Below are positions 135 to 7,102 of a stretch of DNA of 7,102 nucleotides, one piece after another. A program made the translations under genes and the position numbers. How positions within the stretch are numbered: the stretch's first letter is position 1; every line of letters starts with the position of its first letter. The DNA comes from Candidatus Heimdallarchaeota archaeon (GTDB lineage Archaea; Asgardarchaeota; Heimdallarchaeia; Heimdallarchaeales; Kariarchaeaceae). The stretch is from contig JALUTL010000450.1 in the NCBI GenBank assembly GCA_027016475.1, positions 1 through 7,102 of the forward strand. The letters are read 5' to 3'. The notes below the pieces were generated by a model. That model did no database searches. It saw only the letters and a program-made list of their open reading frames with translations, and had not been told where the DNA came from.

Positions 135-941
135 CTAACGGGAAAGTCTTAACGCTCGTTCTGGAGTTTCATATATGGGCAATTTTGCCCTTACATGATC
201 TGTCAGAAACTGAATGGCTGCCGCCCTTTCATCAGGAACGCCTCCCTTCATATACCTGTTTCGTGCAATGGCCAAGTTTTTCAGAAATTCAGAAGGTGAG
301 GGATCGATCCCATAATAGGAAGCTACAGCTCCAGGATTAAGTTCTTCTGCCTGCCCATATAAGATCATGGCGGCATAAATTGGATCCTTGAGCTTTGTAA
401 TTGAAGTAAGCCCCAATAGAATATGATGCTTTTCTGGCAGTTGAGCTGGAATAATTCCCGGTGAATCGAACATGTAAAGGCTATTGCTTACACGAATTTT
501 CTGCTCTCCTCTCGTTTTTCCAGGAATTGGTGCAACGCCTGCTGCTGACTTTCCACGGAGTGTATTGATCAAAGAGCTTTTTCCAGTATTGGGAAAGCCC
601 ACAACAGCAACAACTGCCGTTTTTCGTTTCGATGCACGCAAGAGAACCTGTCTAATGCGTGAGGTTCCCAACCGCTGAGTGGCAGAAAATCCTGCCGCAA
701 CCATCCCCCGCTCGTCAAACCAATCAAGCCATTGTTGAAGAAGGTCTCGGGGAATCAGATCAGTCTTGTTGATGCCAATTACCAAGTTGCAGTGATCCAA
801 TGAGTTAACGTACTCTTCCAGTCTTGAGCTTCGACAAATTGAGGGAAACCGTGCATCCACCACTTCCAAAACGACATCAGATCTATCCACGAGGCTATAC
901 ACTATCCCCCAGAATCGGTTCATTGACATGGTCAAATACAT
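135..941 (-). CDS. rbgA: Circularly permuted ribosome-biogenesis GTPase, YlqF/RbgA family (MMR1/HSR1-type, 50S/60S assembly GTPase)
   Basis: 268-aa ORF. The G motifs are in permuted order: G4 NKTD (GINKTDL), G5 SAT (FSATQ), G1 GFPNTGKSS, G2 PGKTRG, G3 DSPG. The N-terminal DVVLEVVDARFP and the C-terminal helical domain (RNRYMKGGVPDERAAAIQFLTD...G/KLP..ETPE) are typical of RbgA/YlqF. The start could be the ATG beginning at 941, 929 or 923 on the minus strand. Confidence 0.85.
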   Translation of the reverse strand: MYLTMSMNRFWGIVYSLVDRSDVVLEVVDARFPSICRSSRLEEYVNSLDHCNLVIGINKTDLIPRDLLQQWLDWFDERGMVAAGFSATQRLGTSRIRQVLLRASKRKTAVVAVVGFPNTGKSSLINTLRGKSAAGVAPIPGKTRGEQKIRVSNSLYMFDSPGIIPAQLPEKHHILLGLTSITKLKDPIYAAMILYGQAEELNPGAVASYYGIDPSPSEFLKNLAIARNRYMKGGVPDERAAAIQFLTDHVRAKLPIYETPERALRLSR

Positions 942-1100
942 ATCAACATGGAAACTTTAGAACTATTGGATTAGCTACACTTACAATAAGAAGTTCAGAA
1001 GATAACTTCCGTTTTACAATATTTTCCCTTGCGGAAGAAGTTTCATTGGGTTCAAAGTATTTACAAAGAAGATAGAGATCTCTTTTGCCAATTTGAGTTC

Positions 1101-1114
1101 AAAACCACGAAAAA
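1101..1114 (-). terminator. T-runs ending the pre-5S transcript (T5 at 1114-1110, T4 at 1104-1101 on minus strand)
   Basis: The minus strand reads ...CCUGUCAGUUUUUCGUGGUUUUGAAC. These oligo-T tracts lie immediately 3' of the BHB/processing stem. I cannot tell which run is used. T5 lies between the inner and outer stems. Confidence 0.4.
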
Positions 1115-1120
1115 CTGACA

Positions 1121-1140
1121 GGTTACCCCATATCCAGGTT
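1121..1140 (-). other. BHB motif, trailer-side strand: h' AAC (1140-1138), H CUGG (1137-1134), 3-nt bulge AUA (1133-1131), h UGGGGUA(A)CC (1130-1121)
   Basis: Base pairing worked out by hand against 1250-1268. See the findings for the pair list. Confidence 0.7.
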
Positions 1141-1253
1141 CGGATGTTACTGGGTGCACACCAACCCTATGACCGTAATCGTGCTACAGCGTGACGCCTT
1201 TCCCGATTGCTCGCGCAAATCAGTACATGGGTCGTCCGGAGTTGGGCTTAACT
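1132..1253 (-). rRNA. rrf: 5S rRNA, circularly permuted gene (helix III 3' strand, II', V, loop E, IV and loop D encoded before helix I 5' strand, loop A, II, III and loop C)
   Basis: On the minus strand the order is as follows. GUUAAGCCCAAC at 1252-1241. Helix V GACG(A)CC 1236-1230 paired with GGCGUC 1198-1193. Loop E AUGUACUG...GGGAAA. Helix IV with a GCGA tetraloop at 1214-1211. Helix I as a hairpin, GCUGUAG 1190-1184 / UUACGGU 1178-1172, with loop CACGA. Loop A CAUAG at 1171-1167. Helix II GGGUUGG 1167-1161 paired with CCAACUC 1245-1239. Helix III CCAG 1153-1150 / CUGG 1137-1134 enclosing loop C UAACAUCCGAAC. The ends are defined by the predicted BHB cleavage sites, giving 122 nt. Confidence 0.8.
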
Positions 1254-1268
1254 CTCTGGTGGGGTACC
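1250..1268 (-). other. BHB motif, leader-side strand: h GGUACCCCA (1268-1260), H CCAG (1259-1256), 3-nt bulge AGA (1255-1253), h' GUU (1252-1250)
   Basis: Complementary to 1121-1140. The two 3-nt bulges lie on opposite strands and are separated by exactly 4 bp. Confidence 0.7.
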
Positions 1269-1310
1269 TTCAACCGTGGTTGTTGTACAATATCATCTAA
1301 AGCTGACAAG

Positions 1311-1317
1311 TATATAA
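1311..1317 (-). promoter_or_regulatory. TATA box (TTATATA on minus strand) for the permuted 5S transcription unit
   Basis: The minus strand reads CCCTTATATACTTGTCAGCTTTAGATGATATTGTACAACAACCACGG. The TATA box lies about 25-30 nt upstream of the first nucleotides of the leader stem. A second AT-rich box (AATTATA) sits just upstream. Confidence 0.5.
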
Positions 1318-1446
1318 GGGTATAATTAGATAACAGGGAGAGGTAATGTAGTTATGTTTGAAAGAATGGTTAGGCAGTTGAAACTTTTTTGAGAAGGTTT
1401 TAGGAAAATTGAGAAGAGTCGAAGGTCGATAGCCAATACAAGTCAA

Positions 1447-1950
1447 TTATTTGGAGGCCTCCTGTTCCCTCAATTTGGTTGAAGAAATTGGAGATCCGTC
1501 AGCATCAAAAACCCATTCAATCGTATAGATATGTAGAGGTTTCAACTCCCTTTCCTTTCTCATTTGGTTTATTTTCTCTGCATTGGGATAAGTTTCTTCG
1601 GACACTACGATAAGATCAGCCTCAGGGTCAGTTGGGGCGGGTCCCCACGGGTCAAGGAGCTCAGCAACAGTCACTACAGAATTAAACTGGTGCATAAACT
1701 CCTGAACGTTTGCGATACGTACTGACGTTGGCTGGATCAGATCATGGTGTTTTTTATTGGGAAAAAGCTTTTTCCCAAGCCTATTTCCTACTACCCCAAC
1801 AAAAACCTCTTGAGCCAATAGCGCAGCGGTTTCAAGGAGCCGCTTGTGTGCGTCATGAAGTCTATCAAAGGTGCCACCCATGACCGCCTTTCGGAACGGT
1901 TTTTGATCTCTAGGAAATTCCTTGGATAAGTATTTCTGCAAATCATTCAT
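1447..1950 (-). CDS. coaD: Phosphopantetheine adenylyltransferase, archaeal/eukaryotic type (cytidylyltransferase-fold, CoA biosynthesis)
   Basis: 167-aa ORF. It has a nucleotidyltransferase signature GGTFDRLHDAHKRLL (an HxGH-type motif, with A in place of G), then DPWGPA, VVSEETYPNAEKINQMRKERELKPL, and a C-terminal DGSPISSTKLR (ISSTxxR motif). This is the pattern of archaeal PPAT (COG1019-like). Confidence 0.8.
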   Translation of the reverse strand: MNDLQKYLSKEFPRDQKPFRKAVMGGTFDRLHDAHKRLLETAALLAQEVFVGVVGNRLGKKLFPNKKHHDLIQPTSVRIANVQEFMHQFNSVVTVAELLDPWGPAPTDPEADLIVVSEETYPNAEKINQMRKERELKPLHIYTIEWVFDADGSPISSTKLREQEASK

Positions 1951-2095: not shown

Positions 2096-2554
2096 ATGGA
2101 TAACGCTTGGCCCATTGTGGTACTTCATAATGTCAATTCATCCAGCCGATGCACTGAATTTGTTCGAATAGCGACAGGTCTAGGATTCAAGACATTGGTT
2201 CTTTCACAAGCGCAGGGATCTGCGGCACAGAAAGGGATTCCTGCAGCTCAAAAGTACGCCTACAAGGAAAAGGCAAATTTTCTGGCTCTCTACTCCATTC
2301 AGGATGTTGTCGATTTGTTCAGTCCAGAGGAGTTGATATTAGTTGCCCCCCAACCATATGGAAAAGTGACTTTGGATGAAGAGTTCATACAAAATCTTTC
2401 CAATAAGAAATATGCGATTGTTTTTGGAGGGAATGATCCAGGGTTGACAAGAAAGGAGTTGGATATGGGCACATCCGTTCAGCTTCCGATTCCAGATATT
2501 GGATCAATAGGAACATTGGCGGTCACTTTGGCCAAAATTCGGCAATTGATCTGA
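2096..2554 (+). CDS. Small SPOUT / alpha-beta-knot superfamily-like protein (putative RNA methyltransferase fold; archaeal DUF-type), function unknown
   Basis: 152-aa ORF. The C-terminal half, YAIVFGGNDPGLTRKELDMGTSVQLPIPDIGSIGTLAVTLAKI, follows the SpoU/TrmH knot pattern (hhhG.e..Gl...l...d..v.IP....S....A..h). The N-terminal IVVLHNV...FVRIATGLGFKTLVL resembles SPOUT motif 1. The family assignment comes from motif pattern only. Confidence 0.5.
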   Translation: MDNAWPIVVLHNVNSSSRCTEFVRIATGLGFKTLVLSQAQGSAAQKGIPAAQKYAYKEKANFLALYSIQDVVDLFSPEELILVAPQPYGKVTLDEEFIQNLSNKKYAIVFGGNDPGLTRKELDMGTSVQLPIPDIGSIGTLAVTLAKIRQLI

Positions 2555-5571: not shown

Positions 5572-5874
5572 TTAGGAAAAGTGAGTGTTGAACAGCCTGA
5601 TCAAATATGGTGCAATTTGACCAAGCTCTTCAAAATAGTAGTCATAATACCCTAAATAAATGAGATGTAGATAACGCTCTTCGCCACGGTCATAGATTTG
5701 GAGCTCGATCTGGTCTGGATAGAATTCATACATCCAACCTTCCTTTGAATAAATTAGGAAACGGTGATCTGTAAGAAGATATGCTTCGCCATTGACCATA
5801 CCCTCGTCAATGACAAATTCACCGCCATGAAGGAACTCTCGGATTTTATCGAGATGAAGATGCTCCACAACCAA
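5572..5874 (-). CDS. Hypothetical protein, 100 aa (possibly a PH-like/beta-sandwich small domain)
   Basis: ORF with protein-like composition (…GEAYLLTDHRFLIYSKEGWMYEFYPDQIELQIYDRG…). It has no ATG start. The annotated start is TTG at 5874, with an alternative GTG at 5868. I recognise no family. Confidence 0.45.
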   Translation of the reverse strand: MVVEHLHLDKIREFLHGGEFVIDEGMVNGEAYLLTDHRFLIYSKEGWMYEFYPDQIELQIYDRGEERYLHLIYLGYYDYYFEELGQIAPYLIRLFNTHFS

Positions 5875-6054: not shown

Positions 6055-6390
6055 ATGGCCATGGAACTGGATACCAAATTCGAGTATATGAATGAGCATG
6101 ATTTCATGATCGAAATGATTTTGCCCAACAATGTTGCATGGGAATCAAGAACCATTCGTGAAGATCTTCAAATTGCGGAAAAACTTCAAGCTTTCTTGGT
6201 CAACGAATTCATTGAAATTCTTCTTGTGTCCAAATCCTTAGAGGAGAAGATTGAGGCCATTGAAAAATTAAGCGAATGGATTACACCACAGTTCCGTGAC
6301 GAAATACAAACTCTCAAGAGAATTTATGTGCATGAAACAAACCAAGCTGTCAAGAACTCAGTCAAGGATCTAATTGAAGCACTAGTTTAG
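6055..6390 (+). CDS. Hypothetical protein, 111 aa, predicted all-helical and acidic
   Basis: ORF with an ATG start and helical heptad-like composition (…EKLQAFLVNEFIEILLVSKSLEEKIEAIEKLSEW…AVKNSVKDLIEAL). I recognise no family. Confidence 0.5.
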   Translation: MAMELDTKFEYMNEHDFMIEMILPNNVAWESRTIREDLQIAEKLQAFLVNEFIEILLVSKSLEEKIEAIEKLSEWITPQFRDEIQTLKRIYVHETNQAVKNSVKDLIEALV

Positions 6391-6435: not shown

Positions 6436-7102
6436 ATGGATGATACACCTCAAATTGACCATGTCATGGAAGTTTTGGGCATAAGTAGAAACCAGTTTGT
6501 TGTTCGCAGGGTCAACGGAAAAATACGTGTCGTTGAGCTGTATCTTCCAGAAATGCGAATGGTTGAAATTCCACCTGCTCTCAAGCTTAATTTCCCTTTT
6601 TTGGAAAAAATAAGTCTAGAATTGAACGATTTGAGTGAAATACCGGAAAATTTGTTTGCAAAGCTTCCTAATTTGAAAGAAGTGAACCTTTCGCGCAATA
6701 GGATAGAGGAAATTCCAAAAAAGCTTTTTTGGCACAATCGCCAGCTACGGTACATCTATTTGGGTGAAAACAGGATAAAACAAATCGAGGAAGGGACATT
6801 CAACCATCTTAGGTATTTGGAAGTTCTGGATTTGCACAGAAACGCAATGCATGAGCTACTTCCAACATTGATTCGAACTTTGGCATTGGAACGGCTTGAT
6901 CTTTCCAACAACGAAATTGGAAACATACCGCCAAACTTTTTCCAAGGTGTTGAGTTAAGTAAACTGAATCTTAAAGGAAACAGGCTTAAGGAAGTTGATT
7001 TTTCAGAATTTCCGTCGATGCTTGATACGGTAATTTTGAGTGAAAACCAGATTCATCGAATTAAGTTTGGGACACCGCAAAAAAAATTTGACAGATTACA
7101 AA
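6436..7102 (+). CDS. Leucine-rich repeat (LRR) protein, N-terminal part; the 3' end lies beyond the window
   Basis: My own translation from ATG 6436 stays open to the window end (222 codons). An in-frame TAG lies upstream at 6388-6390. After about 45 aa there are at least 7 consecutive 23-24-aa repeats of the typical LRR type, LxxLxLxxNxIxxIPxxLF (e.g. LPNLKEVNLSRNRIEEIPKKLFWH, LALERLDLSNNEIGNIPPNFFQG). Confidence 0.85.
   Translation, partial: MDDTPQIDHVMEVLGISRNQFVVRRVNGKIRVVELYLPEMRMVEIPPALKLNFPFLEKISLELNDLSEIPENLFAKLPNLKEVNLSRNRIEEIPKKLFWHNRQLRYIYLGENRIKQIEEGTFNHLRYLEVLDLHRNAMHELLPTLIRTLALERLDLSNNEIGNIPPNFFQGVELSKLNLKGNRLKEVDFSEFPSMLDTVILSENQIHRIKFGTPQKKFDRLQ

What the first reader, a model, noticed from the sequence alone, without database searches (positions are those of the whole stretch)
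1132..1253. Circularly permuted 5S rRNA gene: the 3' two-thirds is encoded upstream of the 5' third
I read the minus strand. The first segment (1252-1191) carries the elements that normally form the middle and end of a 5S rRNA. These are GUUAAGCCCAAC (helix III and II 3' strands), helix V (GACG-A-CC / GGCGUC), the loop E consensus (GUACU...GGGAA), and helix IV capped by a GCGA tetraloop. The elements that normally begin a 5S come only afterwards (1178-1134). These are the helix I 5' strand, loop A CAUAG, helix II GGGUUGG, and helix III CCAG/CUGG around loop C UAACAUCCGAAC. Helix II forms only between the two swapped parts: 1167-1161 pairs with 1245-1239 as 7 bp including one G-U. This shows the two parts belong to a single molecule. 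Re-joining 1132 to 1253 gives ...GAACCUGGAU-AGUUAAGCCC..., which closely matches the canonical archaeal ...GAACCCGGAAGUUAAGCCC.... The flanks carry no further 5S sequence, so this is not the junction of a tandem 5S pair. Related precedents exist elsewhere. Permuted tRNA genes occur in Cyanidioschyzon merolae and Thermofilum pendens, and a permuted 23S occurs in Pyrococcus furiosus. I am not aware of any natural permuted 5S gene. Standard rRNA finders would report this locus as a truncated 5S or miss it entirely.
Basis: partly seen in the sequence, partly recalled or inferred. Interest (0 to 1): 0.95.

Follow-up and report, generated by a model that had tools for sequence, protein, structure and literature searches.

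The report
Permuted 5S rRNA gene, splice-circularised
This Asgard (Heimdall-group) archaeon encodes its 5S ribosomal RNA with the last two-thirds ahead of the first third, flanked by a textbook tRNA-splicing signal that should cut out the RNA and join its ends into a 122-nt circle; this would explain why 5S genes have been "missing" from these genomes.

Summary
On the minus strand, 1253..1132 carries every 5S element in the order beta-3'/gamma, then a capped helix I, then alpha-5'/beta-5'. Rfam finds nothing at its gathering score; the native order scores 15.8 bits.

The same gene, with its own promoter-like block and oligo-T tracts, occurs in six further lineages titled or clustered as Heimdallarchaeota or Kariarchaeaceae. 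The predicted circles are 120-123 nt.

Across nine copies, 96% of 5S-fold cells pair and 19 of 31 pairs show compensatory changes. For the BHB the figures are 95% and 10 of 14.

A model of the rotated family finds annotated canonical 5S genes at full length (57.6 and 38.6 bits). The native-order model gives 24.7 and 13.7 bits.

The authors of two closed Heimdallarchaeum genomes reported that no 5S gene could be predicted.

Not shown: expression, the final topology (circular or re-opened), and absence of a conventional 5S in this genome.

No description of an archaeal permuted 5S gene turned up in the held literature.

The parts
1311..1335 (-). Conserved upstream block TGTTATCTAATTATACCCTTATATA. 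The TATA-like box TTATATA is at 1317-1311. Presumed archaeal promoter of the 5S transcription unit.
   Evidence: The block TGTTAYCTAA...TTAWATA aligns in all seven lineages upstream of the leader. Promoter function is inferred, not tested.
1260..1268 (-). Leader strand of the outer BHB helix h (GGUACCCCA). It pairs with 1130-1121.
   Evidence: Sequence; the MFE fold pairs leader with trailer. All 7 outer-helix pairs scored (1266-1260 with 1130-1124) show compensatory changes across 9 copies.
1256..1259 (-). Leader strand of the 4-bp central BHB helix H (CCAG). It pairs with CUGG 1137-1134 in the precursor.
   Evidence: 100% paired in 9 copies. It co-varies as CCAG/CUGG, CGGG/CCCG and CGGA/UCCG.
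1253..1255 (-). 5' three-nucleotide bulge (AGA). Predicted endonuclease cut between 1254 and 1253.
   Evidence: Three-nucleotide bulge in every copy: AGA, AAA or UAA. The exact phosphodiester is inferred from my recollection of the canonical BHB rule (cut after the 2nd bulge nucleotide); it was not checked in a paper or tested here.
1132..1253 (-). The permuted 5S rRNA itself: 122 nt between the two predicted cut sites. Joining U1132 to A1253 restores the canonical 5S order.
   Evidence: Predicted circles in relatives are 120-123 nt.
1184..1253 (-). Segment 1, the 3' two-thirds of a 5S. It holds the junction A, GU of outer helix III, UAAG of loop B, the helix II 3' strand (1245-1238), helix V, loop E, helix IV with its GCGA tetraloop, and the helix I 3' strand (1190-1184).
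   Evidence: The Rfam alignment of the gamma domain has high posterior probabilities. Helices IV and V each have 5 of 6 pairs with compensatory changes.
1179..1183 (-). Five-nucleotide loop (CACGA) that caps helix I where a normal 5S has its two ends.
   Evidence: The loop is 5 nt in all copies but varies in sequence: CACGA, UACGA, CUUGA, UAUUA. No processing motif was seen.
1132..1178 (-). Segment 2, the 5' third of a 5S. It holds the helix I 5' strand (1178-1172), loop A CAUA (1171-1168), the helix II 5' strand (1167-1161), helix III CCAG (1153-1150), loop C (1149-1138), CUGG (1137-1134) and AU (1133-1132).
   Evidence: Helix II is 100% paired with 4 of 6 pairs compensatory. Helix III is 100% paired with 3 of 4 compensatory.
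1131..1133 (-). 3' three-nucleotide bulge (AUA). Predicted cut between 1132 and 1131.
   Evidence: AUA or AUU in every copy. The MFE fold shows the 3-nt bulge.
1121..1130 (-). Trailer strand of the outer BHB helix h (UGGGGUAACC, with A1123 bulged).
1101..1114 (-). Oligo-T tracts (T5 at 1114-1110, T4 at 1104-1101). Presumed archaeal terminator.
   Evidence: T-rich tracts follow the trailer of every single or last copy. Function is inferred.

Best explanation
This is a working, circularly permuted 5S rRNA gene of a Heimdall-group Asgard archaeon.

Proposed pathway:

1. It is transcribed from its own promoter as a short precursor: leader, then the 3' two-thirds of 5S, then a 5-nt loop capping helix I, then the 5' third of 5S, then the trailer.
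2. Leader and trailer pair into a strict hBHBh' motif. The leader supplies a second copy of the helix III 5' strand (CCAG). This copy pairs with CUGG to make the 4-bp central helix, and the universal 5S sequences GUU and AAC make the inner helix.
3. The archaeal tRNA-splicing endonuclease (EndA) cuts in the two 3-nt bulges, at 1254|1253 and 1132|1131.
4. The RtcB ligase joins the ends. The result is a 122-nt covalently closed RNA in which ...GAACCUGGAU-AGUUAAGCC... restores the normal beta domain. CUGG then switches partner to the internal CCAG to form helix III.
5. Because helix I is closed by only a short, non-conserved 5-nt loop with no processing signal, the mature 5S most likely stays circular in the ribosome.

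Shown here: the gene order, the 5S fold, the BHB and their covariation, the independent transcription-unit signals, and the spread across lineages.

Inferred: cleavage, ligation, circular end state and ribosomal use.
For: 5S identity and permutation
- Native order scores RF00001 15.8 bits.
- The canonical-order reading across a natural tandem pair scores 27.2 bits, E = 0.0014, model 1-120, despite a 44-nt insert. The native order there scores 12.8 bits.
- The rotated window sequence is 90% identical over 39 nt spanning the junction to a Cetobacterium 5S. That locus scores RF00001 75.8 bits.
- Rotated-family model R2 hits that gene at full length with 57.6 bits, and annotated E. coli rrfH at full length with 38.6 bits. 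The native-order model R1 gives only 24.7 and 13.7 bits, over partial spans.

Fold
- In 9 copies from 7 lineages, 96.0% of cells pair and 19 of 31 pairs have compensatory changes. Slid controls give 31-40%.

BHB
- It has 3-nt bulges, a 4-bp H, a 3-bp h' and an outer helix. 95.2% of cells pair and 10 of 14 pairs are compensatory (7 of 7 in the outer helix). Slid controls give 22-55%.
- The motif meets the strict definition quoted in PMC3978253.
- The leader H strand, the internal helix III strand and their shared partner change together: CCAG/CUGG, CGGG/CCCG, CGGA/UCCG.

Tandem loci
- Each copy's leader pairs only with its own trailer: c1 CUCCUA/UAGGAG, c2 GCUUUCU/AGAAAGC.

Other
- Predicted circles are 120-123 nt.
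- A conserved promoter-like block and T tracts are present.
- Rfam misses every copy at gathering score.
- Authors of closed Heimdallarchaeum genomes could not predict a 5S gene (PMC8813620).
- Circular 16S and 23S transcripts have been seen in Asgard archaea, so the BHB pathway is active there (PMC12918454).
Against: - There are no RNA data, so expression, cleavage, ligation and topology are all inferred.
- Only 7.1 kb of this genome is available, so a conventional 5S elsewhere cannot be excluded. The genome scan would miss a copy with a divergent gamma domain.
- I could not check whether the closed Heimdallarchaeum genomes carry this permuted gene.
- The rotated sequence itself could not be scored against RF00001.
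- The inner helix h' is only 3 bp and invariant, so it has no covariation support. The MFE of the full precursor prefers a local hairpin there.
- L003 has a weak outer helix (3 bp, a 3x3 loop, then 6 bp) that does not fold as a BHB in a mini-substrate.
- The literature states that 5S, unlike 16S and 23S, is not processed through circularisation (PMC12918454). The circular 5S species reported in Sulfolobus and Halobacterium are minor and heterogeneous (PMC12558985).
Confidence: 0.85

Rival explanations
1. Same gene and same BHB excision, but the mature 5S is linear. Either the cut ends are left unligated, giving a 5S nicked in loop B, or the circle is only an intermediate that is re-opened in the helix I cap loop, as happens with permuted tRNAs.
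For: Permuted tRNAs are re-opened after circularisation (PMC3978253). Pyrococcus 23S is re-linearised after circularisation (PMC12918454). The helix I cap is exactly where normal 5S ends lie.
Against: The cap is only 5 nt and varies in sequence: CACGA, UACGA, CUUGA, UAUUA. There is no intervening sequence, second BHB or tRNA-like element to guide a nuclease. Circle length (120-123 nt) already equals a normal 5S. From my own knowledge, RtcB ligates EndA products generally. Mature circular 23S in ribosomes has been reported in many archaea (PMC12918454).
Confidence: 0.2
2. A 5S-derived small RNA with some other role, or a redundant variant copy, while a conventional 5S gene elsewhere in the genome serves the ribosome.
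For: Only 7.1 kb of this genome is available. The scan required a specific gamma-domain sequence.
Against: All 5S signature nucleotides are invariant across lineages: CAUAG, AC, CAU.CCGAAC, GUUAAG and the tetraloop. Every helix is kept by compensation. No RF00001 hit at gathering score appears in about 200 kb of related loci. No conventional 5S could be predicted in closed Heimdallarchaeum genomes.
Confidence: 0.07
3. Tandem copies are read through, and the spacer between copy 1 and copy 2 is removed like an intron. This would give an ordinary linear 5S from the 5' third of one copy and the 3' two-thirds of the next.
For: Tandem pairs exist in L005/L006 and in L024-L026. The canonical-order reading across them scores best with Rfam.
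Against: The window, L003 (inside a 669-kb contig), L013, L015 and L018 each have a single copy. In the tandems, copy 1's trailer is complementary to copy 1's leader and not to copy 2's leader. Helix I would still be capped on both sides.
Confidence: 0.03
4. A rearranged 5S pseudogene or an assembly chimera.
For: Rfam scores it below threshold. One related MAG (L002) really is a mis-assembly, a collapsed tandem.
Against: The arrangement is identical in an independent assembly (L001) and in seven lineages from different projects. There are compensatory changes in all helices. The promoter block, BHB and terminator signals are conserved.
Confidence: 0.02

Closest known systems
Circularly permuted tRNA genes (Cyanidioschyzon merolae and other algae; Thermofilum pendens), matured through a BHB-dependent circular intermediate (PMC3978253)
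   Same: The 3' part is encoded upstream of the 5' part. Leader and trailer form a BHB at the junction. Excision by the splicing endonuclease and ligation restore the normal order.
   Different: The RNA here is 5S rRNA, not tRNA. The natural ends are replaced by a 5-nt cap loop, with no intervening sequence and no RNase P or tRNase Z sites, so the circle is probably the end product rather than an intermediate.
[quoted passage not shown]
   Same: A processing stem with a BHB flanks an rRNA, which is excised and circularised. A circular rRNA can be the mature form.
   Different: Those genes are collinear, and any permutation is made at the RNA level. Here the gene itself is permuted and circularisation is needed to rebuild the molecule. 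5S was explicitly regarded as outside this pathway.
'Permuted' mitochondrial 5S rRNAs of brown algae and other stramenopiles (Valach et al. 2014, PMC4267664)
   Same: Helix I is closed by a hairpin instead of carrying the two ends. Standard 5S models under-score the gene.
   Different: In the algae the ends sit at the three-way junction and the domain order is otherwise kept. The product is linear, and no BHB or ligation is involved. Here the break is in loop B next to helix III, two-thirds of the molecule is transposed, and a BHB is present.
Canonical archaeal and bacterial 5S rRNA (Rfam RF00001)
   Same: All five helices, loops A, C and E, and the signature nucleotides are present. Length is 120-123 nt.
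   Different: The gene order is rotated, helix I is capped, and the bulge next to helix III is AUA instead of AA. The locus fails the Rfam gathering score in its native order.

Membership tests
5S rRNA (RF00001) | Three-way junction with helices I-V in the canonical geometry, maintained by base pairing | tested here: met
   31 pairs, 96.0% of cells paired, 19 pairs with compensatory changes; slid controls 31-40%. Helix II follows the canonical 2 bp, 1x2 loop, 4 bp register.
5S rRNA (RF00001) | Signature nucleotides of loop A (CAUA), the AC bulge, loop C (CAU.CCGAAC), GUUAAG, loop E (GUAC...GGGAA) and a GNRA-type helix IV loop | tested here: met
   Present in the window. Mostly invariant in the 9-copy alignment. 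One lineage, L013, has UAUUA.../GAGAA in loop E.
5S rRNA (RF00001) | Reaches the Rfam gathering score (38 bits) | tested here: not met
   Native order scores 15.8 bits in the window. There are no gathering-level hits in any copy. This is the expected result for a permuted gene.
5S rRNA (RF00001) | Full-length fit to RF00001 once the order is restored | tested here: inconclusive
   The rotated sequence cannot be submitted to the Rfam tool. Natural tandem L006 gives 27.2 bits, E = 0.0014, model 1-120, with a 44-nt insert. The reciprocal test is positive: rotated-family model R2 hits annotated 5S genes at full length with 57.6 and 38.6 bits.
5S rRNA (RF00001) | Component of the large ribosomal subunit | not testable with these tools
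   Needs RNA or ribosome data.
Strict hBHBh' substrate of the archaeal splicing endonuclease | Two 3-nt bulges on opposite strands separated by a 4-bp helix | tested here: met
   AGA and AUA around CCAG/CUGG in the window. The same geometry holds in all 9 copies, and H is 100% paired with 3 of 4 pairs compensatory. Definition taken from PMC3978253.
Strict hBHBh' substrate of the archaeal splicing endonuclease | Flanking helices h and h' of more than two base pairs each | tested here: met
   In the window h is 9 bp with one bulge. Over the 7 pairs counted it is 90.5% paired, and all 7 are compensatory. h' is GUU/AAC, 3 bp and invariant. L003 has a weaker h.
Strict hBHBh' substrate of the archaeal splicing endonuclease | Actually cleaved by EndA and ligated by RtcB | not testable with these tools
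   Inferred only. Circular 16S and 23S transcripts in Asgard archaea show the pathway operates there (PMC12918454).
Permuted RNA genes matured via a circular intermediate (permuted-tRNA type) | 3' part encoded upstream of 5' part, with a BHB at the transcript termini | tested here: met
Permuted RNA genes matured via a circular intermediate (permuted-tRNA type) | Intervening sequence at the natural ends that is removed after circularisation | tested here: not met
   Only a 5-nt, non-conserved cap loop is present, with no recognisable processing signal.
Stramenopile mitochondrial 'permuted' 5S (mtPerm-5S) | Ends located at the alpha/gamma junction, with the remaining domain order unchanged | tested here: not met
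   The break lies in loop B beside helix III and 70 nt are transposed.

The most novel reading that the evidence does not exclude
The ribosomes of a broad set of Heimdall-group Asgard archaea (the lineages sampled here carry Heimdallarchaeota or Kariarchaeaceae labels) contain a covalently circular 5S rRNA. It would be made only from this permuted gene by the tRNA-splicing endonuclease and RtcB. On this reading there is no conventional 5S gene in these organisms, which is why 5S has been reported as unpredictable in their closed genomes.
Probability: 0.5. Interest if true: 0.92.

Novelty: new variant of a known kind. Interest (0 to 1): 0.88.

Why it matters
- 5S rRNA is universal and its gene layout has been treated as invariant in cellular genomes. 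A gene that must be cut and circularised by the tRNA-splicing machinery to yield a usable 5S would extend BHB-dependent gene permutation from tRNA to rRNA.
- It predicts the first ribosome with a naturally circular 5S.
- It offers a concrete answer to a stated annotation gap. Authors of two closed Heimdallarchaeum genomes could not predict a 5S gene (PMC8813620).
- It affects MAG quality scoring, because the 5S criterion fails with standard tools for this clade.
- It gives a ready covariance model for finding the gene.
- The lineage is among the closest archaeal relatives of eukaryotes, so its ribosome biogenesis is of direct interest.
- The prediction is cheap to test: junction RT-PCR or RNase R treatment on existing enrichments or isolates.

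Tried and rejected
1. Leader as a decayed copy of the 5S 5' third. By eye the leader looks like one (ACGGUUGAAGG... against ACGGUCAUAGGG...). That would be a scar of a tandem-duplication origin. Local alignment against 500 shuffles gave z = -0.6 to 1.9 in seven lineages. The idea is not supported and was dropped as evidence.

2. Metagenome DNA pattern scan. It returned only a purine-rich false positive, L012.

3. Genome scan. It recovered only the three genomes already found through protein neighbours. The pattern was too specific for the diverged Kariarchaeaceae-type copies.

4. blastn with the window copy. It missed L013, L015 and L018. They were found by eye and with covariance model R1.

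5. L002 first looked like a copy with a broken BHB and an A.C mismatch in helix II. Close relatives L024-L026 show that it is a collapsed assembly of two tandem copies. It was removed from the final counts.

6. Mini-substrate folding. It recovers the BHB in 5 of 8 constructs. My artificial GAAA linker distorted h', so that inner helix is not validated by the test.

7. Thermodynamic folding. The full precursor is not exceptional (z = -1.38). The circular MFE shares 23 of 31 target pairs. Energy alone would not have identified the structure.

8. Scoring the rotated sequence against RF00001 directly is not possible with the tools. Infernal is absent from the script machine.

Full report
**What is in the window**

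Read on the minus strand, the intergenic space between a GTPase gene (135-941) and a pantetheine-phosphate adenylyltransferase gene (PPAT, 1447-1950; Pfam, source name) holds these parts in order:
- a TATA-like block
- a leader of roughly 35 nt (the transcription start is presumed, not mapped)
- AGUUAAGCCCAACUCCGGACGACCCAUGUACUGAUUUGCGCGAGCAAUCGGGAAAGGCGUCACGCUGUAG (1253-1184)
- the loop CACGA (1183-1179)
- UUACGGUCAUAGGGUUGGUGUGCACCCAGUAACAUCCGAACCUGGAU (1178-1132)
- a trailer, followed by T tracts

The first block has the sequences that normally end a 5S rRNA: the helix II 3' strand, helix V, loop E, helix IV with a GCGA tetraloop, and the helix I 3' strand.

No ORF of 50 aa or more overlaps the region. 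Rfam at gathering score reports nothing in the window. In E-value mode the only hit is RF00001 at 15.8 bits, E = 1.4, and only the gamma domain aligns with confidence.

**The flanks form a splicing signal**

In the leader, GGUACCCCA (1268-1260) pairs with UGGGGUAACC (1130-1121). Leader CCAG (1259-1256) pairs with CUGG (1137-1134). GUU (1252-1250) pairs with AAC (1140-1138).

Between these helices lie two 3-nt bulges on opposite strands: AGA (1255-1253) and AUA (1133-1131). This is the strict hBHBh' motif as defined in PMC3978253: two 3-nt bulges, a 4-bp central helix, and flanking helices of more than 2 bp. In both strands the bulge lies 3' of the central-helix strand, which from my recollection is also the polarity in tRNA introns.

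The canonical cut after the second bulge nucleotide is my recollection of the established rule, not something tested here. The MFE fold of 1290..1100 pairs leader with trailer and shows the central helix and the 3-nt trailer bulge.

**Relatives**

The window is a 7,102-bp NCBI/ENA contig. An independent Logan assembly of run SRR10312498 carries the identical 191 nt (L001).

I found related loci through homologues of the neighbouring PPAT gene. The same permuted gene lies near PPAT in these loci:
- L003 (GCA_030149205.1, inside a 669-kb contig)
- L005/L006 (GCA_964645535.1 and GCA_003696825.1)
- L002 and L024-L026 (Brothers-volcano assemblies)
- L018 (GCA_016839545.1)
- L013/L014
- L015/L016

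A covariance model of the permuted order (R1) was built without L013 and L015. It found both at full length with 105.7 and 101.7 bits.

Two of the genome records are titled Candidatus Heimdallarchaeota archaeon. The PPAT cluster of L018 includes a protein labelled Candidatus Kariarchaeaceae archaeon, a family NCBI places in the Asgard kingdom. The window's own lineage is therefore inferred from its closest relatives.

Predicted circles are 120-123 nt in every lineage. Rfam at gathering score misses all copies.

**Covariation**

The final alignment has nine copies from seven lineages (A5).

| Structure | Cells paired | Pairs with compensatory changes | Slid controls |
|---|---|---|---|
| 5S fold, 31 pairs | 96.0% | 19 of 31 | 31-40% |
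| BHB, 14 pairs | 95.2% | 10 of 14 (7 of 7 in the outer helix) | 22-55% |

Within the 5S fold, helix II, which joins the two swapped segments, is 100% paired with 4 of 6 pairs compensatory. Helices IV and V each have 5 of 6 pairs compensatory.

The most telling detail concerns three strands: the leader strand of the BHB central helix, the internal 5' strand of helix III, and their shared partner. They change together:
- CCAG, CCAG, CUGG in the window group
- CGGG, CGGG, CCCG in L013 and L018
- CGGA, CGGA, UCCG in L015

This means the same 4 nt are selected to pair first with the leader and then with helix III.

**Is it really a rotated 5S?**

The rotated sequence cannot be given to the Rfam tool, so I used three surrogates.
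- In tandem locus L006 the canonical-order reading from copy 1 into copy 2 scores RF00001 27.2 bits, E = 0.0014, model 1-120, despite a 44-nt insert. The native order scores 12.8 bits.
- The rotated window sequence matches a Cetobacterium somerae megaplasmid at 90% over 39 nt spanning the junction. That locus is a canonical 5S at 75.8 bits.
- A model of the rotated family (R2) finds that gene at full length with 57.6 bits (E = 6e-12). It also finds annotated E. coli rrfH at full length with 38.6 bits (E = 1.7e-7). The native-order model R1 reaches only 24.7 and 13.7 bits over partial spans.

**Tandem copies and an assembly artefact**

L005/L006 and L024-L026 carry two head-to-tail permuted copies about 44 nt apart. 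Several contigs end inside the gene (L004, L007, L008, L017).

L002 has one copy whose leader does not match its trailer and which has a mismatch in helix II. Its close relatives show it is a collapsed tandem, with copy 1's front and copy 2's back.

In the tandems each copy's leader is complementary only to its own trailer. This argues for one circle per copy and against intron-like splicing between copies. Within one genome the two copies differ by a compensatory A-U versus G-C pair in helix II.

**Transcription signals**

A block TGTTAYCTAA...TTAWATA aligns upstream of the leader in all seven lineages. T-rich tracts follow the trailer of each single or last copy. Their function is inferred.

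**Mechanism**

The proposed route is transcription, leader-trailer BHB formation, EndA cleavage, RtcB ligation, and a 122-nt circle with a restored beta domain and a capped helix I.

The cap loop is 5 nt in every lineage, is not conserved in sequence, and carries no recognisable processing signal. A circular mature 5S is therefore the most economical reading. Re-opening at the cap, or an unligated nick, remain possible.

Circular 16S and 23S transcripts have been reported in Asgard archaea, and circular 23S in mature ribosomes of many archaea (PMC12918454). The same paper states that 5S is not processed this way.

**A conventional 5S elsewhere?**

This is not resolved for this genome. A gamma-domain pattern scan of 185,579 species genomes found one locus in each of three related genomes and no second copy. 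About 200 kb of related loci hold no RF00001 hit.

[quoted passage not shown] I could not check whether those genomes carry this permuted gene.

**Literature**

Searches for permuted or circular 5S in archaea and Asgard lineages found no description of this gene. The nearest precedent for 5S is the brown-algal mitochondrial 'permuted' 5S. There only helix I is replaced by a hairpin and the product is linear (PMC4267664).

**Verdict**

It is strengthened by the BHB, the covariation and the phylogenetic spread.

It is a new variant of a known kind, BHB-dependent permuted RNA genes, applied to 5S rRNA for the first time as far as the held literature shows.

The open points are expression, final topology, and whether this is the only 5S gene.

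Noticed in passing
L005 8954-9347; L006 1-245; L024 4120-4512; L026 1442-1734: Some relatives carry two head-to-tail permuted 5S copies about 44 nt apart. Only the first has a promoter block, so they are probably co-transcribed. Scaffold gaps (runs of 100 N) and contig ends (L004, L007, L008, L017) fall inside the repeat.
   Followed up: yes
L002 11120-11250 (GCA_015523565.1, WAKA01000061): The single copy in this public MAG is a collapsed tandem, with copy 1's leader and 5' part fused to copy 2's 3' part and trailer. This gives a non-pairing BHB and an A.C mismatch in helix II.
   Followed up: yes
L026 1442-1572 versus 1604-1734: The two paralogous copies in one genome differ by a compensatory pair in helix II (A-U versus G-C) and in the helix I hairpin. 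Both copies therefore appear to be under selection for the fold.
   Followed up: partly
window 135-941 (-), 1447-1950 (-), 2096-2554 (+); same genes in L002, L003, L005, L013, L015, L018: The 5S gene stays next to a PPAT gene and a DUF2122/SPOUT-like gene across all lineages. In several it also sits next to an RsgA/MMR_HSR1-type '50S ribosome-binding' GTPase. Whether the ribosome-related neighbours are functionally linked is unknown.
   Followed up: no
window 1447-1950 (-): The public annotation of the PPAT gene (P0001, 144 aa) starts 23 codons downstream of the longest ORF (167 aa). The Logan gene call uses the 167-aa form.
   Followed up: no
L003 10735-10789 (= L010 2661-2715), inside the DUF2122 gene: Borderline Rfam hit to the C/D-box family SNORD36 (31.4 bits against a gathering score of 30, E about 0.6-0.75). 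It may be an archaeal C/D-box sRNA overlapping a coding region, or noise.
   Followed up: no
window 1254-1290; leaders of L015 and L018: Leaders contain short 5S-like words (ACGGUUGAAGG in the window; UCAUAG and CAUAGGAGA in L015 and L018). These hint at a decayed upstream half-copy, but alignment scores are no better than shuffles.
   Followed up: yes
window 5572-5874 (-), 6055-6390 (+), 6450-6755 (-), 6756-6926 (-): Four ORFs of 56-111 aa have no Pfam match. Unannotated ORFs of similar size (98-120 aa) occupy the region beside the P-type ATPase in L002, L005 and L008.
   Followed up: no
L012 2698-2745: The only metagenome hit to the junction pattern is a purine-rich, G-run sequence with no 5S features. 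It is a chance match.
   Followed up: yes
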